Positions 12,336 through 39,372 of a stretch of DNA of 64,000 nucleotides are shown here, in pieces. Positions within the stretch are counted from its first letter, which is position 1. Every line of letters begins with the position of its first letter. This stretch comes from Burkholderiales bacterium. Its GTDB lineage: Bacteria > Pseudomonadota > Gammaproteobacteria > Burkholderiales > Casimicrobiaceae. The position numbers and the translations under genes are program-made. The notes below the pieces were generated by a model. It made no database searches. It was not told the origin of the DNA and saw only the letters and a program-made list of their open reading frames with translations. Location: contig JBDHRR010000001.1 in assembly GCA_039807685.1 (NCBI GenBank), positions 60,505 through 124,504 on the forward strand, in the 5' to 3' direction.

Positions 12336-12532
12336 GGAAGCGACCCGGCACCGCACCACCCTCCGCGCCGTGGCTCATGGGGCCGCGGCGCGGATGCGTG
12401 GGGCACCAACTTCACCGGCACCGACGCCGCGCCCGCCGGCTGCGCCCGGCCGTCGACAGCGGGCGCGCACTGGTCTAGGCTTTGCGGTCGCCCCTGCCTG
12501 TGCCCGGCCGCGCGCCGGGCTTTCCGCCCGCC

Positions 12533-13165
12533 ATGCGCACCCAGCCGCACGTCCTGGACCATCCACTCATCCAGCACAAGCTCACGCTCCTGCGCAAGAA
12601 GGAGACGAGCACCGCGAGCTTTCGCCGGCTGCTGACCGAGATCGGCTCGCTCATGGCCTACGAGGTGGTGCGCGACGTGCCGTTGCACGACGTGACCATC
12701 GACACGCCGCTCGAGACGATGGTGGGCCGGCTCATCGACGGCAAGAAGCTCGTCTTCGCGCCGATCCTGCGGGCGGGGATGGGCCTCCTCGACGGCTTCC
12801 TCACCGTGATTCCCTCCGCGCGTGTCGGCCACATCGGCCTGTACCGCGATCCCGCGACCCTCGCCGCGGTGGAGTATTACTTCAAGATGCCGGGCGGAAT
12901 GCCCGAGCGCGATGTGGTGGTGCTCGATCCGATGCTCGCCACCGGCCATTCGGCGGTGGCGGCGATCACCCGGCTGAAGGCCACCCGCCCGCGCTCGATC
13001 CGCTTCGTGTGCATCGTCGCCGCGCCGGAAGGCATTCGTGCGCTCACCGCGGCGCACCCCGACGTGCCGATCTACACCGCGGCGGTCGACCGCGAGCTGA
13101 ACGACCACAGCTACATCCTGCCGGGGCTGGGCGACGCCGGCGATCGGATCTTCGGAACCAAATAG
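12533..13165 (+). CDS. upp: Uracil phosphoribosyltransferase
   Basis: [24 protein letters not shown]-binding [30 protein letters not shown]. Confidence 0.95.
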
Positions 13166-13183
13166 GGGTCGTAGCCCGCTCGT

Positions 13184-13792
13184 TCACGGGCGCCGCGTTT
13201 CGCTGACGCAGAAACCCGCGATCCGGGTGAGAACGCGCGCGAGCGCCGCGTTTGCCGCGGCAACGCCACCCGCGGCGTTGTCGGAAGACGAGAGTTCCGT
13301 TTCCTCGAACACGTGGGTCGCCACGACGCGGCGCGTGCGTAGATCCGTGAGCTGGGCGCGCACCACGACCTCGCTGCGGCTCGGCGTCGCACTGAAGTTC
13401 TGCACGACGCGTACGATCTCGGTGTCGAGCCGATAGTCCGCCGGCGCGGCGGCCGGCGCCTGGACCACGGCGCGGAAGCCACCCGTCTGTTCGAGAGCGC
13501 GCACGACGAGCGGCGCCAGCATGCGCGGTGGCGTGTCGACCCAGCGATTGACGGCGAAGCGGTCGAGCTCGTAACCGCCGCGCGTGTACACCATGTCCGT
13601 CGTATCGAAGCCGGGCCACGCGCGTGGCGCCGCGACCTCGATGGCGGCGTCGCTCGGCGGCGCGGCGGCGGCGATCGTCGGCGCGGCGGCGAGGACGTGC
13701 ACCGTCACGGGCTCGGGCGCCGGGGGTTGCAGCGCACTGCACGAAGCGAGCACGAAGGCGGCCAGCACGGCAAACGCGAGTTTCATCGTCAT
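13184..13792 (-). CDS. ABC-type transport auxiliary lipoprotein (PqiC-like)
   Basis: Lipobox LASC; RWVDTPPRMLAPL; last gene of the Mla/Pqi-type operon. Confidence 0.82.
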   Translation of the reverse strand: MTMKLAFAVLAAFVLASCSALQPPAPEPVTVHVLAAAPTIAAAAPPSDAAIEVAAPRAWPGFDTTDMVYTRGGYELDRFAVNRWVDTPPRMLAPLVVRALEQTGGFRAVVQAPAAAPADYRLDTEIVRVVQNFSATPSRSEVVVRAQLTDLRTRRVVATHVFEETELSSSDNAAGGVAAANAALARVLTRIAGFCVSETRRP

Positions 13793-14715
13793 TCTCCGGG
13801 TCCGCGCTTGGCGGGCTGCCGTCCCCAGACGAGCGTGCCCGGATTGCGCTCGAGCTCGCTCGTCGTGCGGCGCAGCGTGCTGGTGACCTCGCGCAGTTCG
13901 GCGATGAGCTGGCGGACCTCGGGCAGCGTCTCCCCGGTGAACTGCGCGACCTCGCCGCGGCTGCCTTCGACGAGCTGCCCCGCGCTCGTCCCGGCGCTGG
14001 CGAGGCTTTGCGTCATGCGATCGAACGCGTCGGCGCTGCGCTCGATTCGCTGCACCAGCGCCGGCAGCTCGGCGGTGAATCGCGCGGCATTGGCCGTCGT
14101 GCGACCGGCGTCGGCGAGCGCCGCGTCGACCGTCGCCGAGCGCGCGGCGAGCGTGTGCGAGACGACGCGCAGGTCGGCGAGCGTTTGCGAGATCGCGCGA
14201 CGATTCTCCTCGTCGAGCACCGCGTTGATGTTGTCGAGCGCGCGCGTCGCCTTCTCGACGAGGACCGTCACCGAAGTGTCGAGGCGCGCGAACAGCGACG
14301 GCCCCGAGCGGATCACCGGATACGAATCACCGGGCTTGGCGACGAGCGGCGGCGACTCCTTGCGTCCGCCCATGAGCTCGACGTAGGCGATGCCGGTGAG
14401 GCCTTGCGTCTGCAGCGTCGCCACCGTGTCCTGCTTGACGGGTGTGTCGCGCTGGATCGACAGCGTGAGCTGCACCTCTTCGACGTTCGCGGGGTTGAGG
14501 ACGATGCCGCGGACGAATCCGACGTCGACGCCGCGGTACTTGACGGGCGCGTTGACGTTGAGGCCCGACACCGATTCGGTCAGGTACGCGAGATAGGTGT
14601 CGTAGCTCTTGCCGTAGTAGCGGCCGCTGGTGAGCCACAGCACGCCGCCGATCAGCGCCGTGCCGAGGAGCAGGACGAAGGCGCCTACGACGGCAAAGTT
14701 GAACTTCGCTTCCAA
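13789..14715 (-). CDS. MlaD/MCE-domain substrate-binding protein with helical C-terminus
   Basis: TTG start (MEAKFNFAVVGAFV); SVSGLNVNAPVKYRGVDVG MCE motif; QGLTGIAYVEL. Confidence 0.85.
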   Translation of the reverse strand: MEAKFNFAVVGAFVLLLGTALIGGVLWLTSGRYYGKSYDTYLAYLTESVSGLNVNAPVKYRGVDVGFVRGIVLNPANVEEVQLTLSIQRDTPVKQDTVATLQTQGLTGIAYVELMGGRKESPPLVAKPGDSYPVIRSGPSLFARLDTSVTVLVEKATRALDNINAVLDEENRRAISQTLADLRVVSHTLAARSATVDAALADAGRTTANAARFTAELPALVQRIERSADAFDRMTQSLASAGTSAGQLVEGSRGEVAQFTGETLPEVRQLIAELREVTSTLRRTTSELERNPGTLVWGRQPAKRGPGE

Positions 14716-15473
14716 GCCTGTTCCCGCGCGGCGCGGCCGCGCGGTCCGTAGAAGTACTCGTGGACGAGAGGATCGTCGAGTTTGGCGAGGTCGTCCATCG
14801 AGCCGACCCCCAGGATATGCCCCCGCCCGAGGACGGCCACCCGATCCGCGGCGCGCCACAGCAGGTCGAGATCGTGCGTGACCATCATGATCGACAGGCC
14901 CAGCGTATCGCGCAGGTTGCGCACGAGCTCGTCGATGCCGCTTGCGCTGAGCGGATCGAGTCCCGCGGTCGGCTCGTCGAGGAAGAGAAGCTCGGGATCG
15001 AGCGCCAGCGCCCGCGCCAGCGCCGCCCGCTTGCGCATGCCGCCCGACAGTTCGTTGGGGTACTTGGCACCGGCGTCGGCGGGCAATCCGGTGAGGGCGA
15101 TCTTGATCGCGGCCATCTCCGCGACGAGGCGCGGCGACAGGGCGGTGTGCTCGTGCAGGACCATGCCGACATTCTCGGCGACGGTGAGCGAGCTGAACAG
15201 CGCGCCGCGCTCGAATACCACGCCGAATCGCCGGCGCAGCGGGAGCGCCTCCTCGTCGCCGAGGCCGACGACTTCGCGGCCGAAGACGCGGATCGACCCG
15301 GCGGCGGGGGCGTGCAGCAGGAGGATCTCGCGCAACAGCGTCGACTTGCCGCAGCCGCTGCCCCCGACCAGCGCAAAGATCTCGCCGCGGCGCATCGCGA
15401 GGCTCACGCCATCGTGCACGACGGAAGCGCCGAAGCGGGTGACCAGGTCGGTGATCTCGACGACGTTATCCAT
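14685..15473 (-). CDS. MlaF-like ABC ATP-binding protein
   Basis: GGSGCGKS, LSGGMRKRAALARAL, FLDEPTAGLDP; TGATG coupling to mlaE. Confidence 0.9.
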   Translation of the reverse strand: MDNVVEITDLVTRFGASVVHDGVSLAMRRGEIFALVGGSGCGKSTLLREILLLHAPAAGSIRVFGREVVGLGDEEALPLRRRFGVVFERGALFSSLTVAENVGMVLHEHTALSPRLVAEMAAIKIALTGLPADAGAKYPNELSGGMRKRAALARALALDPELLFLDEPTAGLDPLSASGIDELVRNLRDTLGLSIMMVTHDLDLLWRAADRVAVLGRGHILGVGSMDDLAKLDDPLVHEYFYGPRGRAAREQAWKRSSTLPS

Positions 15474-28219: not shown

Positions 28220-29260
28220 TCATCGCGGCGGCTCGGATCGCGCTGCGGTCGATCCGCGCGGCGGCCGTGTTGGCGTCGGTGCCCGCGATGCGCGGGCGCC
28301 CCCGGCGACGATTCCCAGCGTCATGACGAGGAGGGTAGCAACGACGTTGTGCAGGGTCGCCGCCACGAGCGGACGGATACCGATCGAGGTCGCGGCGCCG
28401 ATGACCACCTGCGCGGCAACGAGCACCACCAGCCACACCGCGAGTCGACGCCGCGTCGCGCGCAGGCGCCATGCCAGCAGGCCAACCGCGAGCGCAAACG
28501 CCAGCGCGACGATGCGGTGCGCAACCTGCAGTCCTTGCCGGGCGCCGGCATCCAACGCGGGCGACGCTTGCCACGGATCGAATGCCGCGACGCTCGGTCG
28601 CGCGCCGCTCATGCACAGCGGCGTGGCACAGGCGTCGATCGCGTGCCGGGCGCCGATCATCGTGCCGCTGTACGCGAGGAGGGCGACGAGCGCCAAGGCC
28701 ACGAGCGCGCTGCGGGTGATCGCGGCGCCGGCCGGCGCGCTGGCGTCGACGGCGGGCGAGCCCGCTTCCCCGCGGCGGTGCAACGCTGCCGCGACCCACC
28801 CGAGGACAGCGGTCAGGAGGAGCCCGCCGACGAGGTTGCCGAGCGTCACCAGTGGCAGGTCGTGCGGGGTATAGCGACCCAACCACGCGAGGAAGGCGGT
28901 CACGGTCACTGCCACGACGGCGGCGACGCGTCCCGAGACGGCGAGCGACGTCCAGCCGAGCACGGTCACGACGAGAACGAGAACGCCGACGGTCGTCGCG
29001 CTCACCCGGTGCAGCGCGCGGGCGCTGCGCACGCCGGGGAGATCGTCGGTCTTCGCGGTGACCGCAGCCGGCGGGTGGGACGTGGTGCCGGGAGCGGGGC
29101 TGGCGGCGATGCCCGGCGCTGCGGCGGTCGCATGCGCGGTCCGATAGCACGCCGGCCAATCGACGCAGCCCACCCCGTTCTGCGCATGACGGATGAAGGC
29201 GCTCGACGCGGTGATGCACACCGTGAGCAGCGCCGCGACGAGCGCGACGAGCCGGATCAT
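28220..29260 (-). CDS. ctaA: COX15/CtaA (heme A synthase)-family protein with altered catalytic residues
   Basis: GCVDWPAC loop, second Cys pair CATPLC, ALHR, VAHR, TLHN; the second substrate-site His appears as N (TLGNL). Confidence 0.75.
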   Translation of the reverse strand: MIRLVALVAALLTVCITASSAFIRHAQNGVGCVDWPACYRTAHATAAAPGIAASPAPGTTSHPPAAVTAKTDDLPGVRSARALHRVSATTVGVLVLVVTVLGWTSLAVSGRVAAVVAVTVTAFLAWLGRYTPHDLPLVTLGNLVGGLLLTAVLGWVAAALHRRGEAGSPAVDASAPAGAAITRSALVALALVALLAYSGTMIGARHAIDACATPLCMSGARPSVAAFDPWQASPALDAGARQGLQVAHRIVALAFALAVGLLAWRLRATRRRLAVWLVVLVAAQVVIGAATSIGIRPLVAATLHNVVATLLVMTLGIVAGGARASRAPTPTRPPRGSTAARSEPPR

Positions 29261-30693
29261 CGGGCCGGACGCGCCGCGATCACGCTCGCCAGCACCACCC
29301 ACACGAAGAGGACGCCGCCGGCGATGGCGAGCAAACCGCCCAGCCCCATCAAGCCCATGCCCGCCACCTCCTGCGTGGTGCGCAGCGTCTGCTCGGCACC
29401 CGCCACCTTGCGCTGCACGCCGTAGCCGCCGGACCACAGCAGGCCCAGGATGTGCAGCAATTGCCCACCGCCGTACAGCCACGGCTGCCAGTCGGCGAGC
29501 CGTCCGCGGACCTCACGAAAGCCCAGGCGCGGCAGGAGCGCGTACGCCAACCCCATGAGCGCCAGCGTCACGCCGACGATCGAGCCGTGGTAGTGCGCCG
29601 GAATCCGCACGTCGGAGCCCTGGATGAGGAAGCCGATCAGGCCCCCGGCCGCGAACAGCAGTAGCGAGGCAACGAGCGCCGCGCGCAGCGGTCGCGTCAC
29701 CGGGGTCGTCGCCCGCTGCCGCACCAGCGCCACCGCGAGTGCCAGCACCATCGGCAGGATGGCGAGCCCGCCGCCGAAGCGCATGAGCCAGGTCATCATC
29801 CTGCGATACTCGACCGAGACCACGGTCCAGTTGAGATAGATGAGCGGCGCGACGAATACCGAGACGAGACCGATCGCGTAGACGAGGACGACCACGCGCG
29901 GACTCAGCGGCAGCGGCGAGCCGGCAAGCGTGGCGAGCCACGCCCAGGCGACCAGCATGAGGAGCGTCCATGTGAACTGGATGACGTGCCCGGGGCCCCA
30001 GAACAGGAGTTCGTAATAGGTGAGCGCGTCGACGTCGCGCGGAACCTCGGCGAGCGACCACGCCAGCGCCAGCAGCGCAACCGCGCTCGATACCGCGGCG
30101 GCCTTGAGGCCGAAGCGCAGCGCATCGGCCCCGTCGAGGCGCAGGCTCATGCGCGCCGGCGCGACGAACGAGCGCAGGGTGAGGAGCAGGAAGCCCGCGC
30201 CCAGCACGACGAGTCCGGCGAGGAAAGTGTCATTGTCGAGGACCGGCACGTAGTTCGACATCACCGGTACGGCAGCGCCGGTGAAGGGGGCCGCCGCCAT
30301 CAGTGCGGTGCCGGCGGCGGTCACCGCGAGCGCGAGCCACCCCAGCCAGACGAAACGCGGCGACGTATCGAGTGTCCACAGCATGCCCGCCATCGACACG
30401 AACCAGACCAGCACCGACAGGTCGACGTGAACGACGAGCGCGACCCGGAAGAAATCCCCTGCCGGCACGATTCCGGCGAAGAACGGCGTGCGGGCGAGCA
30501 CCAGCAGGATCGAGAACACGCCGGCGCCGATCAGCGCCGCGACACCCAGCAGCAGCCAGCCGGTGGCGATCGAGCGCTGCGCGGTGGCGGGAATCGCGAT
30601 CTCGAAGCGGGCGTCGCGTATCCCGCGCGCGACGCCGCCGAGCACGCGCGCCGGCTCCGCCGATGAGGTGCTGCTCAGCGCGCGCTGCGGCAT
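29257..30693 (-). CDS. Divergent heme-copper-superfamily subunit I paralog lacking the His-His pair
   Basis: About 12 TM; VVHVDLSVLVW (helix II), FWGPGHVIQF (helix VI), PAHYHGSIVG (helix X); no HH in the helix VII region. Confidence 0.72.
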   Translation of the reverse strand: MPQRALSSTSSAEPARVLGGVARGIRDARFEIAIPATAQRSIATGWLLLGVAALIGAGVFSILLVLARTPFFAGIVPAGDFFRVALVVHVDLSVLVWFVSMAGMLWTLDTSPRFVWLGWLALAVTAAGTALMAAAPFTGAAVPVMSNYVPVLDNDTFLAGLVVLGAGFLLLTLRSFVAPARMSLRLDGADALRFGLKAAAVSSAVALLALAWSLAEVPRDVDALTYYELLFWGPGHVIQFTWTLLMLVAWAWLATLAGSPLPLSPRVVVLVYAIGLVSVFVAPLIYLNWTVVSVEYRRMMTWLMRFGGGLAILPMVLALAVALVRQRATTPVTRPLRAALVASLLLFAAGGLIGFLIQGSDVRIPAHYHGSIVGVTLALMGLAYALLPRLGFREVRGRLADWQPWLYGGGQLLHILGLLWSGGYGVQRKVAGAEQTLRTTQEVAGMGLMGLGGLLAIAGGVLFVWVVLASVIAARPAR

Positions 30694-30744: not shown

Positions 30745-31251
30745 TCATCGGATGACGACGCCGCCTTGATCGGGCACGAAGTCGATGAGGACGACCTGTC
30801 CGGGGGCGAGCTTGATCCGACGCTCCGCCTCGTGATTGAAGCCCTTGACGCGAACGCTGTCGTTCACCTGCACGCGCAGGAGATGCTCGCCGGCGGGAAT
30901 CGGCTGCCGGCGATAGCCGCTCGCCGCGCCGTCGCGACGCAGCCCTGCCGGCGCGAACGTCTCGTCCAGCACCAGCTTGCCGTCGAGATCGACGCGCACG
31001 TGCACCGGCGAACGCTCGCGCGGGCAGTCCATCTGCGCGCGCAGTTGTGGCGACATCTTGGCGAGCTCCTCGGGACTGCGCGGACGGCAGTCGGTGGTGA
31101 GCTGGCCGGGCGCGCGGAACGACAGCCGCAGGAGCGCCTGATCGGGCGGCAGGTGCTGGTACGCGGGCGCCGTCGAGAAATAGCCGATGAAAGCAGCGAA
31201 CAGGATGTAGAGGATCGCCTGTCCGCCGTAGCGCAACGCCGAGTTAGCCAT
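30745..31251 (-). CDS. Hypothetical membrane-anchored protein with two Cys
   Basis: Single N-terminal TM (QAILYILFAAFIGYF), TTDCRPR and MDCPRER, beta-rich C-terminus; overlaps the upstream gene's stop. Confidence 0.75.
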   Translation of the reverse strand: MANSALRYGGQAILYILFAAFIGYFSTAPAYQHLPPDQALLRLSFRAPGQLTTDCRPRSPEELAKMSPQLRAQMDCPRERSPVHVRVDLDGKLVLDETFAPAGLRRDGAASGYRRQPIPAGEHLLRVQVNDSVRVKGFNHEAERRIKLAPGQVVLIDFVPDQGGVVIR

Positions 31252-32836
31252 GGATACTGTCTCCGAGCGGGTGGCGGGTCGTCCCGCCGTCTGCCTTTCT
31301 TGTCTCGCCCGCGGGGAGCCGCGCGCGGAACGATTCGATGTCGCTGTCGAGTGCGGCGCCCTGTTCGCGGCCGGCATGGATCACCGCGAGCCGCCTCCGA
31401 TCGACGCTGCGGCGCAGCCACGGCGGACGCAGGCCGGCGATGCGCTCGAGCGTCCATCGTACCCCGAAGCGGTATTCGCAATCGCCCATCGCGCACGTTG
31501 CCACCACGACCCCGGCCGCGCCCGCGCGCAAGCCGTAGTCGACGAAGGTCGGCGGCAGCATGCCGGTACACGGCAGTCCGATGACGATCGTGCCGGGTTG
31601 CCTGGTCGGCTGCGCACCGTGGTGACAGGCGAAGACCAGGAGTGAGCCGCTCGCGTCGGGTCGGCCGAATGCAGTGTCGATCGCTGCGCGCACCGTATCC
31701 ACCGTGTAGTACGGCAGGTCGATGCCACTCACCAAGGCGGTGACCGAACGGAACGGCACCGCCGACGGGCAGGCGCCCGCGCAGATCCCGCAGGAGGCAC
31801 AGCGATCGGCGTCGACCACCGCGATCTCGCCCCTGCCGCTCGGATGCGGCGCCATGGCGATCGCGGCGTAGGGGCAATCCTCGAAGCAGCGCCGGCAGCC
31901 GTTGCAATACAGCGGGACGACCACCGCCGGCGCCGGTCGCGGCGTGCGACCGAGCCACGGCAGCACCGCGAGCAGCAGCGTCAGGCCTACGCTCGCGATC
32001 CAGACCGCCTCCGGCGAAGTGGTGTAGATGGCCGGCAACGGCGCGAGATAGAACCAGTCGATCGGCAGGTCGGTAGGGATTCGCGCGAGGTCGGCGGGCG
32101 GCCCCGACACCGCCGGTACGACGAGCGACAGCGCGACGAGCGCGGCGAGACTCGCCAGCGCCACGCGCCGCGTGGTGCCGGTCTGTGGGCGGGTGAGCCT
32201 TTGCACGTGTGCCCACATGGTAAGCAGCAGCACGAGCGGCAGCCCGATGTGCAGGAAGGCAACCAGCGAGAACAGGCGGTCGGACACCGCGCTCTCGGCG
32301 ATGAAATTGCGCACCAGCGCCGGCCCGAAGCCGGGAAGGACGCCGAACCATTCGGTGGTGGCGGTGGCGACGAACTGCGCGAGCGTGTCCCACACCATCC
32401 AGTAGCCGACCACACCGGCGGCGACCGCGAGCCAGAGCGTGGGGATGCCGCTCACCCAGCTGTACCAGCGAAAGCCGCGGAAGCGCCCGAGCAGCAATTC
32501 GCGCAGGAGATGCACGATGATCACCACCACGAAGGCGTCCGACGCGTAGCGGTGGAGGCTGCGCATCAGCCCGCCGGCCCACCGCTGGCCGTGCGTGAGT
32601 GTCTCGACCGAGGCGTACGCACCGACGACGCTGGTGTCGTAGAAGATGTACAGGTAACCGCCGGTCAACGCGATCAGCCAGAAGAGGTAGAACCCGAGTC
32701 CCCCGAGCTGGCGCAATGGATTGTCGTCGACGCCGCAGAGGCGGTCGAGGGCATGCTCGCCGGCGCGCCACGCGCGCGCCGCCGCGGCGTCGGCCGCGAC
32801 CGCGGCATCGGGAGTCGAAGACAGGTTGAACGCCAT
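31244..32836 (-). CDS. Cytochrome b - 2x[4Fe-4S] - FlpD/MvhD-type Fe-S fusion protein
   Basis: Four heme His (SLHRY, IVHLLR, FLHIG, WAHVQ); IDWFY; CNGCRRCFEDCP and CASCGICAGACP; FACHHG, LPCTGMLPP, TCAMGDCEY. Confidence 0.85.
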   Translation of the reverse strand: MAFNLSSTPDAAVAADAAAARAWRAGEHALDRLCGVDDNPLRQLGGLGFYLFWLIALTGGYLYIFYDTSVVGAYASVETLTHGQRWAGGLMRSLHRYASDAFVVVIIVHLLRELLLGRFRGFRWYSWVSGIPTLWLAVAAGVVGYWMVWDTLAQFVATATTEWFGVLPGFGPALVRNFIAESAVSDRLFSLVAFLHIGLPLVLLLTMWAHVQRLTRPQTGTTRRVALASLAALVALSLVVPAVSGPPADLARIPTDLPIDWFYLAPLPAIYTTSPEAVWIASVGLTLLLAVLPWLGRTPRPAPAVVVPLYCNGCRRCFEDCPYAAIAMAPHPSGRGEIAVVDADRCASCGICAGACPSAVPFRSVTALVSGIDLPYYTVDTVRAAIDTAFGRPDASGSLLVFACHHGAQPTRQPGTIVIGLPCTGMLPPTFVDYGLRAGAAGVVVATCAMGDCEYRFGVRWTLERIAGLRPPWLRRSVDRRRLAVIHAGREQGAALDSDIESFRARLPAGETRKADGGTTRHPLGDSIHG

Positions 32837-32879: not shown

Positions 32880-33731
32880 TCAGGCGCGGCGCGTCCGCCG
32901 CAACTCGCGCAGCGTGAACCAGGCGATTGCCCCGAGCGTGGTCAAGCCGGCGAAGATCTCGAAGAACAGCGAATAGTTGAGACGGTAGCCGCCGCCTTGC
33001 GGATCGTACACGGTACAGTACAGGATCACCTTGTCCCAGACGTTGCCCAGTGTGAGTTCGCGCGAGGCCTGCCCCGAGCGCAATTCCTTGAGCGGTTGCA
33101 CGAGCATCGGCAGGTCGAAATTCTCGCCGTAGACCTGGCGGTAGATGACGCCTTCGGCATCGACGATGGTGACCTGCGTGACGTGATCGAAGCCCTTGGC
33201 GGTGGCCTCGTAGACGAAGCCCAGGTTGGCGGTGAGTGCCTCGACCTGCGTCGGATCGGGGCTCAGGAAATGCCAGCCGGGCTCATCGATGCGGTTCTGG
33301 CGCTTGAAGGCGGCCATTGCCGCCGGCGTGTCAAAGGGTTGATTGAAGCCGATCGACACCACGGTGAAGGCGTCGTCGCCCAAGGCCCGGCGCGCCTCGC
33401 GCACGGCCTGCGCGAGGAACTGCGTGGCGACCGGACAGGCCTGGAAGCAGCCGGTGTACACGAGGCTGACCAGCAGGGGTCGTCCCTGGTAGTCGCGCAG
33501 GCGAACGTCCTTGCCGTTGCTGTCGCGCAGGCGGATGTCGGCAACCGGCCGGCCGATCGCCGCCTGGCTCGTCGTGACGGCGCGCTGGTAATCGGGCGCC
33601 CGGGGTGCCTTGGCGCTGTCTTCTGCCGTCGCCCGCGCCGGCAGCGCGACCATGCAGGCGGCGGCGCCGGCCGCGAGCGAGGTGATCAGGATGCGGGCGA
33701 GCGGTGCGCGGCGGGAGCTGCGACTCGGCAC
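32880..33731 (-). CDS. SCO-family copper chaperone with C-terminal membrane extension
   Basis: YTGCFQACP (CxxxC) and GFDHVTQ His; C-terminal TM FFEIFAGLTTLGAIAWF. Confidence 0.88.
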   Translation of the reverse strand: MPSRSSRRAPLARILITSLAAGAAACMVALPARATAEDSAKAPRAPDYQRAVTTSQAAIGRPVADIRLRDSNGKDVRLRDYQGRPLLVSLVYTGCFQACPVATQFLAQAVREARRALGDDAFTVVSIGFNQPFDTPAAMAAFKRQNRIDEPGWHFLSPDPTQVEALTANLGFVYEATAKGFDHVTQVTIVDAEGVIYRQVYGENFDLPMLVQPLKELRSGQASRELTLGNVWDKVILYCTVYDPQGGGYRLNYSLFFEIFAGLTTLGAIAWFTLRELRRTRRA

Positions 33732-33735
33732 GGCG

Positions 33736-34602
33736 TCAGGCCCCGAGCGAGGACCTCATCCAGCCGTCGGCGATGGTTCCCATGAGGAGCAGCGAGAGCT
33801 GGACGAGCGAGGCGTGGAAGCTTGCCAGCGCATTGGCCCGATTCGGCGTGCGGGCCAGCAGCCAGGCACGCCACACGAAGAGCGCACTGCCGGTCGCTGC
33901 ACATGCGAGGTAGAGCCAACCCGGGCCGAAGAATGCAAGCGCGAGCGAACAGCCGACCATGACGAGCGCGTGCCAGAAGATCGCCCAGGCCGCGAAGCGG
34001 TCGCCCTTGACCACCGGCAGCATCGGCACCCCGACGCTCGCGTAGTCGTCGCGGCAGACGATCGCGAGACTCCAGAAGTGCGGCGGCGTCCACAGGAACA
34101 GCACGAGGGCGAGGACGAGCGCCTCCGGCGAAAGCTGCGGGGAGACCGCCGCCGCGCCGGCCAGCACCGCGAAGCTGCCGGCCAGCCCTCCGATCACGAT
34201 GTTCCACGCGCTGCGACGCTTGAGCCAGACGGTGTACACGATCGCGTAGACGAAGGCGCCCAGGAACGTGTACAGCGCCGCGGCCGCGTTGGTGGCGAGC
34301 CACGCCGCCGCCACCGCGATTCCGGTCAGCGCGACGATGAGTACCAGCCAGCCGCGATGGTGCCGCATGTGCCCGCTCACGAACGGGCGGCGACGCGTCC
34401 GCGTCATCCGCGCGTCGAGATCGACCTCGTAGAACTGGTTGAAGGCACCTGCGGCCGCCGACGACAGCAGCACGGCAAGCGTCAGGACCACGCCTTGCCA
34501 GGGGGCGAGGGTGCTGCCGGGCGACACCATCAGCCCGGCGACCGCGGTGAGCGCGATCGCCACGCCGATGCGCAGCTTGAAGAGATTGAGCAGCGCCTTC
34601 AT
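33736..34602 (-). CDS. ctaB: Protoheme IX farnesyltransferase (heme o synthase)
   Basis: LFKLRIG, NQFYEVDLDARMTRTRRRP, YTVWLKRR, LWTPPHFWSLA, DYASVGVPMLP. Confidence 0.93.
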   Translation of the reverse strand: MKALLNLFKLRIGVAIALTAVAGLMVSPGSTLAPWQGVVLTLAVLLSSAAAGAFNQFYEVDLDARMTRTRRRPFVSGHMRHHRGWLVLIVALTGIAVAAAWLATNAAAALYTFLGAFVYAIVYTVWLKRRSAWNIVIGGLAGSFAVLAGAAAVSPQLSPEALVLALVLFLWTPPHFWSLAIVCRDDYASVGVPMLPVVKGDRFAAWAIFWHALVMVGCSLALAFFGPGWLYLACAATGSALFVWRAWLLARTPNRANALASFHASLVQLSLLLMGTIADGWMRSSLGA

Positions 34603-34678: not shown

Positions 34679-36385
34679 CTAGCTCAGACCCCAGACCGTC
34701 GACAGGTACTTCCAGTTGACGAAGTAGTACAGCACGAAGGCGACCAGGAACACCATCGCGAACACGAAGGTACCCGGAACGCCCCAGCCGCCGCCGTGGC
34801 CGCCATCCTCGACGAGCGAGACCTCCACCGGCAGGCGCAGCGGCGTCACCTTGGTCGAGTAGGCACCCGAATCCAGTCGCTTGCCGAAGAGGATGGTGCC
34901 GACCGTCACGGTGATGTACATCACGCCGCCGATGACCGCGATGATGCCGCCGATCGCGAAGATGGCGATCATGAGCAGTGCCGTTCCCGGGAACTCGTAG
35001 GGGAATGCGGCGCCGGCGAAGGTGATGTCCCAGCTGCGACGCGGCACGCCGAGCGTGCCGGCGCCCATCATGGCGAGCGTGAACACACCCATGCCGAGAC
35101 CGAAGACGTACGGCTGCAGCTTCGCCCAACCCGGGAGGATCAGCTCGCGATTGAAGAGCGTGGGCAGCAGGAAGTACGTCAGCGCCATGAAGGCGAGCGT
35201 GGTACCGATCACCACCGTGGCGTGGAAGTGCCCCGGCACGTAGATCGTGTTGTGGATGATCATGTTGAGCTGCTCGGTGCCCATCATCACGCCCGAGATG
35301 CCGCCCAGGAAGCCGAAGCCGATGAGCGAGATGAACATCCCCGAGAACACCGGATTGCTCCACGGCGCCTTGCGCAGCCACTCGAAGAGCCCCTTCGTGT
35401 AACCCTTCGCCCGCTGCGCGGCTTCGATCGCGCCCGGCACGGTGAGGCCGTGCAGCATCGACGCCAGCACCGCGAGGTACATCGCGTAGCTCGTGTTGAA
35501 CACCTTCCACTCGGTGCCCACCGCCGGGTCGGCCAGGATGTGGTGCGCCGACGCGAGTTGCAGGAACAGGATGTAGAGGAGGAACGCGGAGCGGCTCACC
35601 CGCTCGGACATCGGCTTCGCGCCGAAGACGATGGCGGCGATCGCATACCACACCGCGATGTGCGCCGACACGTTGATCTGCTGCGACGAGTGACCGAACG
35701 CCCACCAGATCACGCGGTACATCGCCGGATCGATGTGGCTGATGTATCCCGCCGACCACAGGAAGGTGGGGATGAGGATGATCGCACCCGAGGCGATCGT
35801 GAAGATCGCGATGATGCAGGCGGTGATCGCGCCGAAGGTGACGAGCGGAACCGAGCCCTCGTAGGTCTTCTCGGACTTGGCGATGACGAGCGTACCCAGG
35901 AACACGAAGCAGCCGATGAGCGCGCCGACCGCGAACAGGATGAGGCCCAGGTAGAACGCCGGAATCGCCGGCAGCGGCACGTAGGACGTCATCATCACCG
36001 TCGCGTTGCCGGTGAAGATCGCGACGTTGAAGGTGATGGTGCCGATCACCATCAGCGCCCAGGCGAGCCAGGCGAGTCGCGGGGTGGCGATCCGGCAGCG
36101 CAGCAACGTCGACGAGCAGAAATAGAGGATCGCGATCTCGAAGAAGATGATCCAGACGACCAGCATGTCGAGACCGTGCGCGGTCAGGTACATGTAGAAG
36201 TTGTCGGCGTCGAGCAGGTGGATCGCCTGCCAGCGCGTGAGCGTGATCAGCAGGGCGAGAACTCCGCCGATCAGCAGCGCGACGACGGCGGCGACGGCGT
36301 TGGCCTTGATGAGCAACTCGGCCGACTTGTGGAATTGCAGCCCCGTGCGGGGGCAGATGCGGTACTGCGGGACGGCGGTGGCCAT
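34679..36385 (-). CDS. B-family-derived heme-copper subunit I; probable eNOR-type nitric oxide reductase catalytic subunit
   Basis: All six His present (LTAHG; GHSSQQ; SAHHI; GHFH). Helix VI reads H-S-S-Q-Q (35678-35692) instead of HPxxY, so there is no His-Tyr cross-link. Confidence 0.8.
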   Translation of the reverse strand: MATAVPQYRICPRTGLQFHKSAELLIKANAVAAVVALLIGGVLALLITLTRWQAIHLLDADNFYMYLTAHGLDMLVVWIIFFEIAILYFCSSTLLRCRIATPRLAWLAWALMVIGTITFNVAIFTGNATVMMTSYVPLPAIPAFYLGLILFAVGALIGCFVFLGTLVIAKSEKTYEGSVPLVTFGAITACIIAIFTIASGAIILIPTFLWSAGYISHIDPAMYRVIWWAFGHSSQQINVSAHIAVWYAIAAIVFGAKPMSERVSRSAFLLYILFLQLASAHHILADPAVGTEWKVFNTSYAMYLAVLASMLHGLTVPGAIEAAQRAKGYTKGLFEWLRKAPWSNPVFSGMFISLIGFGFLGGISGVMMGTEQLNMIIHNTIYVPGHFHATVVIGTTLAFMALTYFLLPTLFNRELILPGWAKLQPYVFGLGMGVFTLAMMGAGTLGVPRRSWDITFAGAAFPYEFPGTALLMIAIFAIGGIIAVIGGVMYITVTVGTILFGKRLDSGAYSTKVTPLRLPVEVSLVEDGGHGGGWGVPGTFVFAMVFLVAFVLYYFVNWKYLSTVWGLS

Positions 36386-36396
36386 GGTTCCCCCGA

Positions 36397-36936
36397 TTAC
36401 TTGACGTAGAGCCGCGAGACCATCTTGTGATGGCCGATGCCGCAGAATTCGTTGCAGACGATCGCGTACTGGCCCGAGCGATTGGGCGTGACCGTCACCA
36501 CGTGCTGGTAGCCGGGAAGGACCTGGATGTTGATGTTCTCAGGCTGCAGCGAGAATCCGTGCTGGTAATCCATCGAGCTCAGGTTGAGGCGATAGCTCTT
36601 GCCCTTCTCGAGTTCGAGGATCGGCCACCAGTCCCACAGGCGCGCGATGAGGTAGATGTCGCTGCCCGCGGGCGGCGCCACCACCGGCACCTTGCCCTCG
36701 CCCTCGGTGCGCACGGTGTACTTGTCGACCATGTCCTGCGCGGCCTTGGCGAAGAGTTCGGGCTTGACGCGGTACGTTTCCGATGACAGGTTCTGCTTAC
36801 CGAACACGTGCCAGTACGGCATCATGAAGAACATGATCATGCACCACACGAAGGCGATGACGATCCAGATGATCTCGATCTTGTCGACCGGTTGCTTCCA
36901 CCAGATGCGTTGCGGCGGGGGCAGTATGGCGCTCAC
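36397..36936 (-). CDS. CuA-containing subunit II (single TM, ba3-type architecture)
   Basis: DYQHGF...CNEFCGIGHHKM CuA motif; one N-terminal TM. Confidence 0.92.
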   Translation of the reverse strand: MSAILPPPQRIWWKQPVDKIEIIWIVIAFVWCMIMFFMMPYWHVFGKQNLSSETYRVKPELFAKAAQDMVDKYTVRTEGEGKVPVVAPPAGSDIYLIARLWDWWPILELEKGKSYRLNLSSMDYQHGFSLQPENINIQVLPGYQHVVTVTPNRSGQYAIVCNEFCGIGHHKMVSRLYVK

Positions 36937-37452: not shown

Positions 37453-39372
37453 TTGCTCAAGATAGTCCAAGGCTTCCTGCAGTGGTTTTTCCTGCGGATG
37501 GAGGCGATCGGCAACCGGGTATTCGGCGATCGGCTGAACCCGATGTACTACCTGGGCGCGACGAGCTACTGGATGTTCTGGATCGTCGTCGCCAGCGGCC
37601 TGTACGTCTACGTTTTCTACGAGACCGGGGTCGACAAGACATACGCCTCGATGGAGGCGATCACGCACGGGCAGTGGTTCGCCGGCGGCATCATGCGCAG
37701 CGTGCACCGCTACGCGTCCGACGCGATGGTGCTGACCATGCTGCTGCACATGCTGCGGCATTTCGCCTTCGACCGCTATCGCAGCTTCCGCGCCTTCTCG
37801 TGGGTCACCGGCGTGATCGTGCTGTGGCTCGTCTACGCCTCGGGCGTGAACGGCTTCATGCTGCCCTGGGACAAGCTCGCGCAGTTCGTGGTGATCGGCA
37901 CCACCGAATGGCTCGATTCGCTGCCGGTGTTCAACGGCATCCTGACGCGCAATTTCATCACCCCCGACGCGATCACCGACCGGCTTTTCTCGCTCCTGTC
38001 GTTCCTGCACATCGGCATTCCGCTGGTGGTGATGCTCGCGCTGTGGATCCACACGCAGCGCGTGCCGCGCGCGTCGCAGATTCCGCCTCGCCGTCTCGCC
38101 TTCGGACTGCTCGCGATGCTGCTCGTGCTGTCGCTCGTGAAGCCGGTGGTGAGCCAGGCGCCCGCCGATTTCAACACGGTGCCGATGCGGCTCGACTTCG
38201 ACTGGTTCTATCTCACCGTCTATCCGCTCATCTACGCCTGGGATCCGCTCAAGCTGTGGATCCTCTGTGCCGGCGTCACCGTACTGCTGCTGGCGTTGCC
38301 GTGGCTGCCACCGGCGCGCAGCGGCAAGGGCCGCGCGTATCACCTGACGGCGCACCCGGGTCGCCAGGGCGCACCGGTGCGCGTCGGCGAGACGCTGCTC
38401 GACGCGGGGCTGCGCGCGGGCATCGCGCTGCCTTACGAATGCCGCTCTGGCGGCTGCGGCGTGTGCAAGGCGACGATGATCGGCGGCGAGGTCGAGATGT
38501 CGGGCTACCAGCCCTCCGCGCTCTCCGCCGAGGAGCGCAGCGCGGGTCGCATCCTGCTGTGCTGCGCCCGCGCGCTGTCCGATGTCGAGTTCGAATACGA
38601 GGCGGATGCGGCCGCCCGCGGCACGAAGATCGAGACCTACGAGACGCGCGTCGAGCGACTGGCGCCGCTCGCCCACGACGTGATGCTCGTCGCGCTGCGC
38701 CTGCCCGAGGGACGCAAGATCGAGTTCGAGGCCGGCCAGTACGTGAACGTCGTGCTCGACGGCGGCGCACGACGCAGCTACTCGTTCACGACGCCGTCGG
38801 GCGCCACCGACCTCATCGAACTGCACGTGCGGCTGATGCCTGGCGGGTTGTTCACCTCGCGCGTCTTCGAATCGATGAAGGTGGGCGATCCCATCACCAT
38901 CGAGGGCCCGGTGGGGTCGTTCGTGCTGCACGAGCCGAGCGAGAAGCCGCTCATCTTCGTCGCCGGCGCGACCGGCTTCGCGCCGGTCAAGAGTCTCCTC
39001 GAACAGGCTTTCCACATGGGGATCCAGCGGCCGCTCTACCTGTACTGGGGCGTGCGCCGTCGCCGCGATCTCTACCTCACCGAGTTGCCGGAACGCTGGG
39101 CGCGCGAGCACCCCAATTTCCACTTCGTGCCCGTGCTCTCGGAGGCGGCCCCCGAGGACGACTGGCACGGCCGCACGGGCCTCGTCCACGAGGCGATCCT
39201 CGCCGATTTCCCGAACCTGTCGGGCTTTGCGGTCTACGCCTGCGGTTCGGTGCGCATGGTCGCCGCGGCGCGGCCGGCGTTCGTCACGCAGGGCCTGCAC
39301 GAGGATGCGTGCTACTCCGACGCGTTCATCCCCGCCGGTGGCGCCGAGCCGGGAGTCGCGCCGCCCGCGTAA
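37453..39372 (+). CDS. Cytochrome b - [2Fe-2S] ferredoxin - FAD/NAD(P)H reductase fusion
   Basis: Heme His SVHRY, LLHML, FLHIG, WIHTQ; FDWFY; CRSGGCGVC...LLCC; RSYS (FAD); AGATGFAP and YACG (NAD). RBS GGAGGA before TTG. Confidence 0.88.
   Translation: MLKIVQGFLQWFFLRMEAIGNRVFGDRLNPMYYLGATSYWMFWIVVASGLYVYVFYETGVDKTYASMEAITHGQWFAGGIMRSVHRYASDAMVLTMLLHMLRHFAFDRYRSFRAFSWVTGVIVLWLVYASGVNGFMLPWDKLAQFVVIGTTEWLDSLPVFNGILTRNFITPDAITDRLFSLLSFLHIGIPLVVMLALWIHTQRVPRASQIPPRRLAFGLLAMLLVLSLVKPVVSQAPADFNTVPMRLDFDWFYLTVYPLIYAWDPLKLWILCAGVTVLLLALPWLPPARSGKGRAYHLTAHPGRQGAPVRVGETLLDAGLRAGIALPYECRSGGCGVCKATMIGGEVEMSGYQPSALSAEERSAGRILLCCARALSDVEFEYEADAAARGTKIETYETRVERLAPLAHDVMLVALRLPEGRKIEFEAGQYVNVVLDGGARRSYSFTTPSGATDLIELHVRLMPGGLFTSRVFESMKVGDPITIEGPVGSFVLHEPSEKPLIFVAGATGFAPVKSLLEQAFHMGIQRPLYLYWGVRRRRDLYLTELPERWAREHPNFHFVPVLSEAAPEDDWHGRTGLVHEAILADFPNLSGFAVYACGSVRMVAAARPAFVTQGLHEDACYSDAFIPAGGAEPGVAPPA

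What the first reader, a model, noticed from the sequence alone, without database searches (positions are those of the whole stretch)
29257..30693. Second subunit-I paralog that keeps the heme ligands but has lost the His-His non-heme metal pair
Seen: helix II His (VVHVDL), helix VI GH-V-I-Q (29977-29988, with Gln at +3 as in the catalytic paralog's HSSQ) and helix X HYH (29587-29595) are retained. The helix VII region (VEYRRMMTWLMRFGGG) has no HH, and it is about 90 aa shorter than the catalytic copy. Inference: it could bind two hemes but not a normal FeB/CuB site. Possible roles are a heme-loading scaffold, a transmembrane electron wire from the cyt b fusions to CuA, an NO sensor or buffer, or a pseudo-enzyme partner in a heterodimer. 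It is translationally coupled to ctaA (4-nt overlap), which hints at heme handling.
Basis: partly seen in the sequence, partly recalled or inferred. Interest (0 to 1): 0.82.

Follow-up and report, generated by a model that had tools for sequence, protein, structure and literature searches.

The report
Copper-less oxidase paralogue, likely haem helper
This gene encodes a look-alike of the main subunit of respiratory oxidases that keeps its two haem sites but has lost the copper/iron site and the proton channel. It belongs to a large, untested protein family whose genes travel with haem-processing genes, so it is probably a helper in building haem enzymes and not an enzyme itself.

Summary
Window 29257-30693(-) encodes a 478-aa, 12-helix member of the haem-copper oxidase (HCO) subunit I superfamily. 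It keeps the haem ligands (H89, H367, H369), the propionate pair R428/K429 and one metal-site His (H236, in H-x-x-Q). The K-type proton path is also lost. The 4-nt overlap with ctaA is real.

The gene is one member of a large, old family: at least 625 clusters at 50% identity, and 13 of 201 sampled families of its class. The family is monophyletic and sister to eNOR-type subunit I. A 2026 preprint already calls the Ferrigenium counterpart an "eNOR scaffold protein of unknown function".

That name is too narrow. Family members also lie between ctaA and ctaB in aa3-type oxidase clusters, pair with ctaA alone, or are fused to a TPR domain downstream of ccsA/resB cytochrome c maturation genes. One complete eNOR cluster lacks the gene.

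The best reading is a non-catalytic, haem-binding accessory protein of haem handling and insertion. Here it would serve eNOR together with a dedicated CtaB and CtaA. The function is untested. It is a new member of a known but uncharacterised kind.

The parts
29257..30693 (-). The finding: a CuB/FeB-site-less HCO subunit I paralogue (478 aa, 12 TM helices)
   Evidence: Translation; Pfam COX1, E 5.2e-15; AF2 pLDDT 90.5, pTM 0.91; Foldseek best match ba3 subunit I, TM 0.75
30427..30429 (-). H89, helix II, predicted low-spin haem ligand (ba3 H72)
   Evidence: Kept in 131 of 132 family representatives; aligned to ba3 H72
30010..30012 (-). E228, a family-specific acidic residue where ba3 and eNOR have Arg (ba3 R225)
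   Evidence: E121/D6/N5 in the family; R in 15 of 15 eNOR-like subunits
29977..29988 (-). H236-V-I-Q239: the only metal-site His retained (ba3 H233), plus the invariant Gln at the ba3 V236 position
   Evidence: H in 132 of 132, Q in 131 of 132; the eNOR neighbour has HSSQQ
29836..29841 (-). I285-Y286: positions of the lost helix VII His-His pair (ba3 H282/H283)
   Evidence: Profile alignment to ba3; family composition I/L/A and Y/F/H
29782..29796 (-). M300-T301-W-L-M304: family-specific F-T-x-x-M motif at the outer end of helix VIII, role unknown
   Evidence: T in 120 of 132 and M in 128 of 132; absent from eNOR-like subunits
29587..29595 (-). H367-Y-H369, helix X: predicted proximal ligand of the high-spin haem and second ligand of the low-spin haem (ba3 H384/H386)
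   Evidence: H367 in 130 of 132, H369 in 129 of 132; alignment
29407..29412 (-). R428-K429: counterpart of the haem-propionate Arg pair (ba3 R449/R450)
   Evidence: R in 126 of 132, K in 127 of 132
28220..29260 (-). Divergent ctaA (haem A synthase family); its ATG overlaps the paralogue's TGA (ATGA)
   Evidence: Pfam COX15-CtaA, E 6.4e-23; overlap; a second, canonical ctaA lies elsewhere in the genome (387 against 82 bits)
30745..31251 (-). 168-aa anchored protein: one TM helix plus an Ig-like beta sandwich with two invariant Cys. A conserved upstream neighbour of the paralogue.
   Evidence: Synteny; alignment; AF2 pLDDT 95.4; no significant PDB fold match
31244..32836 (-). Cytochrome b fused to a 2x[4Fe-4S] domain and an FlpD/MvhD-like domain
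   Evidence: Pfam; synteny
32880..33731 (-). SCO1/SenC-type copper chaperone
   Evidence: Pfam
33736..34602 (-). ctaB (haem O synthase)
   Evidence: NCBIfam TIGR01473, 263.5 bits, above its cut-off
34679..36385 (-). eNOR-type catalytic subunit I (HSSQQ; all six His; K-path residues kept)
   Evidence: Pfam COX1, E 4.6e-65; residue table; tree
36397..36936 (-). CuA-type subunit II
   Evidence: Pfam COX2 and NCBIfam CoxB/NosZ C-terminal matches
37453..39372 (+). Divergently transcribed cytochrome b fused to a [2Fe-2S] ferredoxin and an FNR-type reductase
   Evidence: Pfam; conserved in the cluster, in variable positions

Best explanation
The gene encodes a membrane protein with the 12-helix fold of HCO subunit I.

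Inferred from conserved residues:
- It binds two haems as the enzymes do. The low-spin haem sits between H89 and H369, the high-spin haem on H367, and the propionates on R428/K429.
- It has lost two of the three His of the CuB/FeB site, the cross-link Tyr, the K-type proton path and the exit-side residues.
- It therefore cannot carry out proton-coupled NO or O2 reduction.

Shown by comparative genomics: the family is an accessory of haem-processing machinery, not of one particular oxidase.

Proposed mechanism, not tested: in this operon the protein works with the dedicated CtaB and the divergent CtaA. It takes up newly made haem O/A in subunit-I-like pockets. It then holds or presents the haem for insertion into apo-eNOR subunit I. 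This would resemble the way NifEN, a catalytically dead paralogue, serves as a cofactor scaffold for nitrogenase.
For: Identity and anatomy:
- Pfam COX1 over the full length; AF2 pLDDT 90.5 with 12 TM helices; best PDB fold match ba3 subunit I; best PDB sequence-profile match ba3, E 1.9e-14.
- Near-invariant haem ligands and the R/K pair across 132 clusters.
- Loss of H282/H283, Y237, Y248, S261, S309, T312, T315 and H376 (ba3 numbering), all of which the eNOR-like neighbours keep.
- The family is monophyletic (SH-aLRT 100) and sister to eNOR-like subunits (92).

Association with haem genes:
- All 48 close loci with at least 5 kb of flank on both sides have ctaA or ctaB within 6 kb. ctaA is directly adjacent in 21 of them.
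- Of 23 distant metagenome loci, 18 have ctaA or ctaB within 6 kb.
- The paralogue lies between ctaA and ctaB in two A-type (HPEVY) cox clusters (L169, L170).
- It follows ctaB in a caa3 cluster of a Nitrospirae MAG.
- It forms divergent ctaA-paralogue pairs with no oxidase genes within 9 kb.
- TPR-fused members lie directly downstream of ccsA-like genes (resB also present in two) in 3 of 4 contexts. They carry an extra 13th TM segment that would put the TPR domain in the periplasm.

Accessory, not core:
- A complete eNOR cluster exists without the gene in a 99%-complete genome (L168).
- In F. straubiae the counterpart's transcripts are about 7-fold below eNOR I and about 40-fold below eNOR II, and the protein was detected.
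- This genome has a second, canonical ctaA, and a surf1 in its A-type operon. The eNOR operon therefore carries its own haem kit.
Against: - No biochemical data exist for any family member.
- Both haem sites and the distal pocket (W232, H236, Q239) are strictly conserved. That looks more like permanently bound, working cofactors than a transfer site, and no release mechanism is evident.
- ctaA and ctaB are themselves usual residents of oxidase clusters, so part of the association could be indirect. Only some loci separate the two.
- Some members stand alone (L171, L084).
- The single paralogue-CtaB fusion is a singleton in 5.8 billion proteins and may be an artefact.
- Identity with the F. straubiae "scaffold protein" rests on synteny and annotation, not on a sequence comparison.
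Confidence: 0.45

Rival explanations
1. Redox partner of haem-handling enzymes. The two permanently bound haems would form a transmembrane or lateral electron path. This path would supply or remove electrons, or deliver an O2-derived oxidant, for CtaA. In the TPR-fused clade it would keep trafficked haem reduced for CcsBA, as the b-haem of CcmF is thought to do.
For: - The same gene neighbourhoods as the main reading.
- Strict conservation of both haem sites and of a His/Gln/Trp distal pocket fits working cofactors.
- The operon also encodes NAD(P)H-type reductase, ferredoxin and cytochrome b fusions. From general knowledge, eukaryotic Cox15 needs ferredoxin and ferredoxin reductase, and the bacterial electron partner of CtaA is not known.
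- One cytochrome b-paralogue fusion exists (P0122).
Against: - The cytochrome b fusions are absent from the A-type and stand-alone contexts.
- The cytochrome b fusion is a single partial contig.
- No docking site or partner contact has been shown.
- Many bacteria make haem A without this family: 188 of 201 sampled families lack it.
Confidence: 0.2
2. Permanent pseudo-subunit or electron wire of an eNOR-cytochrome b supercomplex. The paralogue would dimerise with, or dock on, eNOR subunit I and relay electrons from the cytochrome b fusions.
For: - Very tight synteny in Burkholderiales and other Proteobacteria: subunit II, subunit I, ctaB, SCO, cytochrome b fusion, small TM protein, paralogue.
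- The protein and both cytochrome b fusions were detected in the F. straubiae proteome.
Against: - Family members occur with A-type oxidases, with ctaA alone, with ccsA/resB, and in genomes without any eNOR-like gene.
- An eNOR cluster with the cytochrome b fusion and the small TM protein lacks the paralogue (L168).
- eNOR is described as a two-subunit enzyme, and the purified R. marinus eNOR is active (PMC11214002).
- Transcript and protein levels are below those of eNOR I/II.
Confidence: 0.12
3. Independent haem-only enzyme or gas sensor. The high-spin haem with a distal His/Gln pocket would bind or convert NO, O2 or peroxide without a second metal.
For: - H236, Q239 and W232 are invariant around the former binuclear site.
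- Q239 occupies the ba3 V236 position. PDB entries of V236 point mutants appear. From memory, V236 lines the ligand channel.
Against: - The proton pathway is lost.
- No signalling domain is present.
- No link to regulators was seen in most contexts.
- The neighbouring genes are biosynthetic, not regulatory or catabolic.
Confidence: 0.08

Closest known systems
"eNOR scaffold protein" of the Ferrigenium straubiae eNOR operon (IMG gene 2878407321; bioRxiv 10.64898/2026.01.22.701106)
   Same: - Both are COX1-like (KEGG coxA) hypothetical proteins encoded after sco1, a cytochrome b fusion and a small hypothetical gene in an eNOR operon.
- The gene order matches the loci seen here.
- Function is stated to be unknown, and the protein was detected in the proteome.
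   Different: - The Ferrigenium sequence was not on hand, so identity of the family rests on synteny and annotation.
- The name ties the protein to eNOR, whereas this family also occurs with A-type oxidases, with ctaA alone and with ccsA/resB.
eNOR subunit I (B-family-derived NO reductase; Rhodothermus marinus enzyme; Murali et al. 2024, PMC11214002), here window 34679-36385
   Same: - The same fold and the same haem ligands.
- An H-x-x-Q motif after the helix VI His.
- Sister group in the tree.
   Different: - The paralogue lacks two of three metal His, the second Gln, the K-path residues and H376.
- It has E where eNOR has R225.
- It is 90 aa shorter, and identity is only 26%.
Thermus thermophilus cytochrome ba3 subunit I (PDB 1EHK, 1XME)
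   Same: Best solved-structure match by sequence profile (E about 2e-14) and by fold (TM 0.75).
   Different: - 20% identity.
- No CuB His pair, no cross-link Tyr, no K-path analogue, and 12 instead of 13 helices.
Surf1/Shy1 and CtaM (DUF420), known or suspected helpers of haem a insertion
   Same: - Genes co-localise with oxidase and haem A genes.
- The proposed role lies between CtaA and subunit I. A review (PMC9145763) says how haem A is inserted into subunit I is still not known.
   Different: - No sequence or fold relationship.
- Surf1 is present separately in this genome's A-type operon.
NifEN, the scaffold paralogue of nitrogenase NifDK (analogy from general knowledge)
   Same: A catalytically dead paralogue of the client enzyme that keeps cofactor pockets and is encoded with cofactor biosynthesis genes.
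   Different: An unrelated protein family. The analogy is conceptual only and was not tested.
CcmI/CcmH-type TPR apocytochrome chaperones of cytochrome c maturation
   Same: The TPR-fused clade has a membrane part plus a probably periplasmic TPR domain. It sits in ccsA/resB operons, and one member gives a weak Pfam TPR_CcmH_CycH match.
   Different: The membrane part is an HCO fold. The window's protein has no TPR domain.

Membership tests
Haem-copper oxidoreductase superfamily, subunit I (Pfam PF00115) | 12-helix core fold and a significant match to the family profile | tested here: met
   PF00115: 55.7 bits against a cut-off of 34.8, over the full length. AF2 gives 12 TM helices. Foldseek gives ba3 and aa3 subunit I with probability 1.00.
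Haem-copper oxidoreductase superfamily, subunit I (Pfam PF00115) | Three His ligands of the two haems (helix II, and helix X twice) | tested here: met
   H89, H367 and H369 are present and kept in 131, 130 and 129 of 132 representatives. Actual haem binding was not tested.
Haem-copper oxidoreductase superfamily, subunit I (Pfam PF00115) | Three His ligands of CuB/FeB (helix VI His plus the helix VII His-His pair) | tested here: not met
   Only H236 is present. ba3 H282/H283 correspond to I285/Y286, and the family has I/L/A and Y/F/H there.
Haem-copper oxidoreductase superfamily, subunit I (Pfam PF00115) | A conserved proton input channel (K-type in the B family and eNOR) | tested here: not met
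   The Y248, S261, S309, T312 and T315 positions are hydrophobic and variable in the family. They are kept in 14-15 of 15 eNOR-like subunits, with His at the T312 position.
eNOR family (Murali et al. 2024) | Complete three-His metal site with the eNOR active-site motif (HSSQQ in the neighbours here), and a CuA subunit II partner | tested here: not met
   The motif is H-V-I-Q-F and there is no His-His pair. In the tree the protein lies outside the eNOR-like clade, as its sister.
eNOR family (Murali et al. 2024) | NO reductase activity | not testable with these tools
   This needs purified protein.
"eNOR scaffold protein" (Becker et al. preprint 2026) | A COX1-like hypothetical gene in the tail of an eNOR operon, after sco1, a cytochrome b fusion and a small hypothetical gene | tested here: met
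   The window gene order and 80 genome loci show this arrangement. The preprint describes the same arrangement.
"eNOR scaffold protein" (Becker et al. preprint 2026) | Sequence homology to F. straubiae gene 2878407321 | not tested
   The sequence is not held by any tool used. Only the KEGG coxA-like annotation and the synteny are known.
Surf1 / CtaM haem a insertion helpers | Homology to PF02104 or PF04238 | tested here: not met
   The only Pfam hit is PF00115. Any resemblance is functional only.

The most novel reading that the evidence does not exclude
The family may be the missing partner of bacterial haem-modifying and haem-trafficking enzymes. It would be a copper-less, two-haem HCO-fold protein with one of two roles:
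- It supplies the redox or O2-handling step for haem A synthase, which could explain how haem A enzymes such as eNOR are matured at very low O2.
- It is the first acceptor of haem O/A before insertion into subunit I.

The same module would have been reused by system II cytochrome c maturation.
Probability: 0.18. Interest if true: 0.85.

Novelty: new member of a known kind. Interest (0 to 1): 0.52.

Why it matters
[quoted passage not shown] From general knowledge, what supplies or removes electrons for bacterial CtaA is also unsettled.

A widespread, strongly conserved, haem-binding but copper-less copy of subunit I sits between ctaA and ctaB, or is translationally coupled to ctaA. That makes it a concrete, testable candidate for this missing step.

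Genome pipelines name it "cbb3-type cytochrome c oxidase subunit I". Counting it as a terminal oxidase or NO reductase therefore inflates predictions of respiratory and N2O-producing capacity.

The result also widens the "eNOR scaffold" label. The family serves, or at least accompanies, A-type oxidases and cytochrome c maturation as well.

Tried and rejected
1. **Small TM protein as a degenerate subunit II.** I tested whether the conserved 168-aa upstream neighbour (30745-31251) is a degenerate subunit II, which would make the pair a pseudo-oxidase. Its confident model is one TM helix plus an Ig-like sandwich. It has no PDB match at E <= 0.001 and no cupredoxin among the hits. Rejected.

2. 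**Paralogue-CtaB fusion (P0248) as strong evidence.** It is the only protein in the 5.8-billion set with both domains, on a single contig. I kept it only as an adjacency.

3. **Single-sequence phmmer against PDB.** It found nothing relevant. The family profile was needed.

4. **First neighbourhood count.** It used a greedy ORF caller that failed on high-GC loci. I replaced it with six-frame HMM annotation. The HMMs were built here and are not curated, but they agree with the precomputed Pfam hits.

5. **A new metal site from His in helices VII/VIII.** Scattered HH pairs occur at positions 296/297 or 302/303 in some members but are not conserved. One basal member (P0254) keeps the canonical HH and lies next to a DUF420 gene.

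8. **Decaying pseudogene.** Rejected, given the open frame and family-wide purifying conservation.
Full report
**Observation**

The ORF at 29257-30693 on the minus strand gives a 478-aa protein. It matches Pfam COX1 over its whole length (E 5.2e-15, 55.7 bits, cut-off 34.8). No NCBIfam model matches it.

It is 26% identical (E 1e-18) to the 568-aa catalytic subunit I at 34679-36385. That alignment pairs several residues and puts the catalytic His-His pair opposite a gap and a Ser:
- H89 with the helix II His.
- G-H236 with the helix VI G-H.
- H367-Y-H369 with H-F-H of helix X.
- R428-K429 with the R-R pair.

The protein has only five His residues. The stop codon overlaps the ATG of ctaA in ATGA.

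One detail was wrong. VEYRRMMTWLMRFGGG is the start of helix VIII in the model. The positions of the lost His pair are I285/Y286, at 29836-29841.

**Fold and residues**

An AlphaFold model built on 40 family members is confident (pLDDT 90.5, pTM 0.91) and has 12 transmembrane helices. Its best PDB matches are T. thermophilus ba3 subunit I (TM 0.75, 20% identity), followed by aa3, bo3 and cbb3 subunits. A family profile also finds ba3 first (E 1.9e-14).

Among 132 representatives that are 33-62% identical to the query, the following are invariant or nearly so:
- H89, W232, G235, H236, Q239.
- H367, Y368, H369.
- R428, K429.

I then compared positions in ba3 numbering between this family and 15 eNOR-like catalytic subunits taken from the same loci.
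- The eNOR-like subunits keep H282, H283, R225, Y248, S261, S309, T315, H376 and His at position 312.
- The paralogue family has hydrophobic or variable residues at all of these. It has Phe at the Tyr237 position, Gly at H376 and Glu at R225.
- Family-specific conserved residues also appear: N147, E228, F/Y300, T301 and M304. Their role is not explained.

The sequence therefore predicts two haems held as in the enzymes, but no second metal and no K-type proton path. Haem binding itself is inferred, not shown.

**Size and age of the family**

The word-indexed search gave 6826 proteins at E <= 0.001 among 8000 scored candidates. Where a source named them, the name was mostly "cbb3-type cytochrome c oxidase subunit I". 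The exhaustive search of 50%-identity representatives gave 1490 hits at E <= 0.001, 1111 at 1e-10 and 625 at 1e-30.

In a sample of one genome from each of 201 families of the window's class, 13 genomes carry a clear member (E < 1e-100).

In a quick maximum-likelihood tree the family is one clade (SH-aLRT 100) on a long stem. It is sister to the eNOR-like subunits (92), with ba3 outside, then A-type subunits, rooted on the window's ccoN. A basal member, P0254, still has His-His at the canonical place. So the pair was lost after the duplication. The tree is a short search and has long branches, so I treat the sister relation as likely, not settled.

**Genomic context**

In the 80 closest genome loci the gene order is almost fixed: subunit II, eNOR-type subunit I, ctaB, SCO, a cytochrome b fusion, the 168-aa anchored protein, sometimes the second cytochrome b fusion, then the paralogue. 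After the paralogue comes ctaA or the cytochrome b-ferredoxin-reductase fusion.

With six-frame HMM annotation:
- All 48 close loci with at least 5 kb on both sides have ctaA or ctaB within 6 kb. ctaA is directly adjacent in 21 of them.
- Among 23 distant metagenome loci (33-41% identity to a distant member), 18 have ctaA or ctaB within 6 kb and 18 have COX1 or COX2.
- Of those 23, 15 have both, 3 have only the haem genes, 3 have only oxidase genes, and 2 have neither.

The oxidase neighbours are of two kinds: 39 eNOR-type (H-x-x-Q plus HH) and 9 with the Tyr of O2 reductases.

Individual cases make the point more sharply.
- In a Nitrospirae MAG the paralogue follows COX3, SCO, a cytochrome c-fused COX2, an HPAVY-type COX1 and ctaB.
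- In two genomes of the class sample it lies between ctaA and ctaB beside an HPEVY-type cox cluster, while their eNOR-like genes are on other contigs (L169, L170).
- Two distant members form divergent pairs with ctaA and have no oxidase gene within 9 kb.
- One genome has the paralogue but no eNOR-like gene (G117).
- A 99%-complete genome has a full eNOR cluster, including the cytochrome b fusion, the small TM protein and ctaA, but no paralogue (L168).

**Fusions**

Five 50%-identity clusters carry a C-terminal TPR domain.
- A hydrophobic 13th segment precedes the TPR domain in four of the five and is weaker in P0234. That would place the TPR domain in the periplasm.
- Three of four TPR-fused members looked up (the fifth, P0130, sits on a contig too short to show neighbours) lie directly downstream of a ccsA-like gene (PF01578). 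Two of those also have resB, and one is followed by a thioredoxin-like gene. That is a system II cytochrome c maturation setting.

A paralogue-CtaB fusion exists but is unique in the database. A cytochrome b-paralogue fusion is known from one partial contig. I give these two little weight.

**This genome**

The assembly has five full-length COX1-family genes:
- an A-type subunit;
- ccoN;
- the eNOR-type subunit;
- one further subunit on contig 1;
- the paralogue.

It has two ctaA genes. One is canonical (387 bits), 75 kb away on the same contig. The other is the divergent copy (82 bits) coupled to the paralogue. The only surf1 lies in the A-type operon. So the eNOR operon carries its own ctaB, its own unusual ctaA, and the paralogue.

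**Literature**

Murali et al. 2024 (PMC11214002) define eNOR. They note that many eNOR operons hold ctaA, and they state that gNOR is the first HCO family to have replaced an active-site His. They do not treat this family.

[quoted passage not shown] The gene is a KEGG coxA-like hypothetical protein in the same operon position.
- Its transcripts are 294-334 TPM at 28 °C under denitrifying conditions.
- eNOR I is at 2078-2494 TPM and eNOR II at 10813-15062 TPM.
- Its proteome value is 28.0, against 31.6 for eNOR I/II and 24.7 for Sco1.

A review of oxidase assembly does not mention such a protein. It states that how haem A is inserted after synthesis on CtaA is not known.

Earlier notes of this scan reached the same general reading for relatives in other genomes. 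I saw those notes only after my own residue and synteny analysis, and I do not count them as evidence.

**Interpretation**

Shown:
- Membership of the HCO fold.
- Family-wide retention of the haem-site residues.
- Loss of the metal pair and of the proton path.
- Recurrent linkage to ctaA/ctaB, and in one clade to ccsA/resB.
- Dispensability for at least one eNOR cluster.

Inferred: the protein binds two haems and acts in haem handling.

I favour a scaffold or holding role between CtaB/CtaA and apo-subunit I (0.45). A redox-partner role for the haem-handling enzymes is the main rival (0.20). It explains the strict conservation of both haem sites and of the distal His/Gln/Trp pocket better, but it explains the absence of any conserved donor or acceptor less well. 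A permanent eNOR-cytochrome b supercomplex subunit (0.12) and a stand-alone haem enzyme or sensor (0.08) fit the wider distribution poorly.

**Verdict**

The finding is real and correctly described apart from the helix label. It is a new member of a family that is already noted but not characterised. The "eNOR scaffold" name is too narrow for that family. Its interest lies in a testable link to the open question of haem A delivery. It is not a new enzyme chemistry.

**Limits**

- The context HMMs were built here.
- The Ferrigenium sequence was not compared directly.

Noticed in passing
window 28220-29260 (-), and G000:C128:14764-15732: The ctaA coupled to the paralogue is a divergent copy (PF02628, 82 bits). 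A canonical ctaA (387 bits) lies 75 kb away on the same contig. Several relatives have two ctaA genes beside the eNOR cluster (G113, G196).
   Followed up: partly
L168 (G032:C22:40000-56000): A complete eNOR-type cluster has COX2, COX1 with HSSQQ, SCO, a cytochrome b fusion, the small TM protein and ctaA, but no paralogue. The genome is 99% complete.
   Followed up: partly
L172 2686-4653; L174 4233-6239; L175 8001-10079: TPR-fused members of the family, with an extra 13th hydrophobic segment, lie directly downstream of ccsA-like genes. resB is also present in L172 and L174, and L172 has a thioredoxin-like gene after it. This is a system II cytochrome c maturation setting.
   Followed up: partly
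P0254 (NCBI assembly GCA_041442895.1; no DNA fetched): A basal family member keeps His-His at the canonical helix VII place but has the H-x-x-Q motif. It is encoded directly after a DUF420 (CtaM-like) gene, with no oxidase genes among the genes called in the 12.7-kb locus. It may be an intermediate form.
   Followed up: partly
window 30745-31251 (-): The 168-aa anchored protein is always near the paralogue in eNOR-type clusters. It has two invariant Cys (C55, C76) and a CP-RER motif. It folds confidently as one TM helix plus a beta sandwich, with no significant PDB match. Function unknown.
   Followed up: partly
window 31244-32836 (-) and 37453-39372 (+): There are two paralogous cytochrome b fusions, one to 2x[4Fe-4S] plus an FlpD/MvhD-like domain and one to a [2Fe-2S] ferredoxin plus an FNR-type reductase. 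Both are conserved in the cluster, but their order and orientation vary between genomes.
   Followed up: partly
L053 11451-11927: In the Nitrospirae MAG, the paralogue at the end of a caa3-type cluster is followed by a 158-aa ORF that looks like an Rrf2-type regulator by eye (not checked against Pfam). After that come two large membrane proteins, one with a CxxCH motif.
   Followed up: no
L083 2-2287 (P0122): A single, 5'-truncated metagenome ORF fuses a cytochrome b domain directly to the paralogue. The paralogue domain is 62% identical to the window protein.
   Followed up: no
window 29782-29796 and 30010-30012 (-): Family-specific conserved residues are unexplained: F/Y300-T301-x-x-M304 at the outer end of helix VIII, E228 replacing the Arg of ba3 and eNOR, and N147 before the conserved Y148. 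They may form a new site near the former binuclear centre.
   Followed up: no
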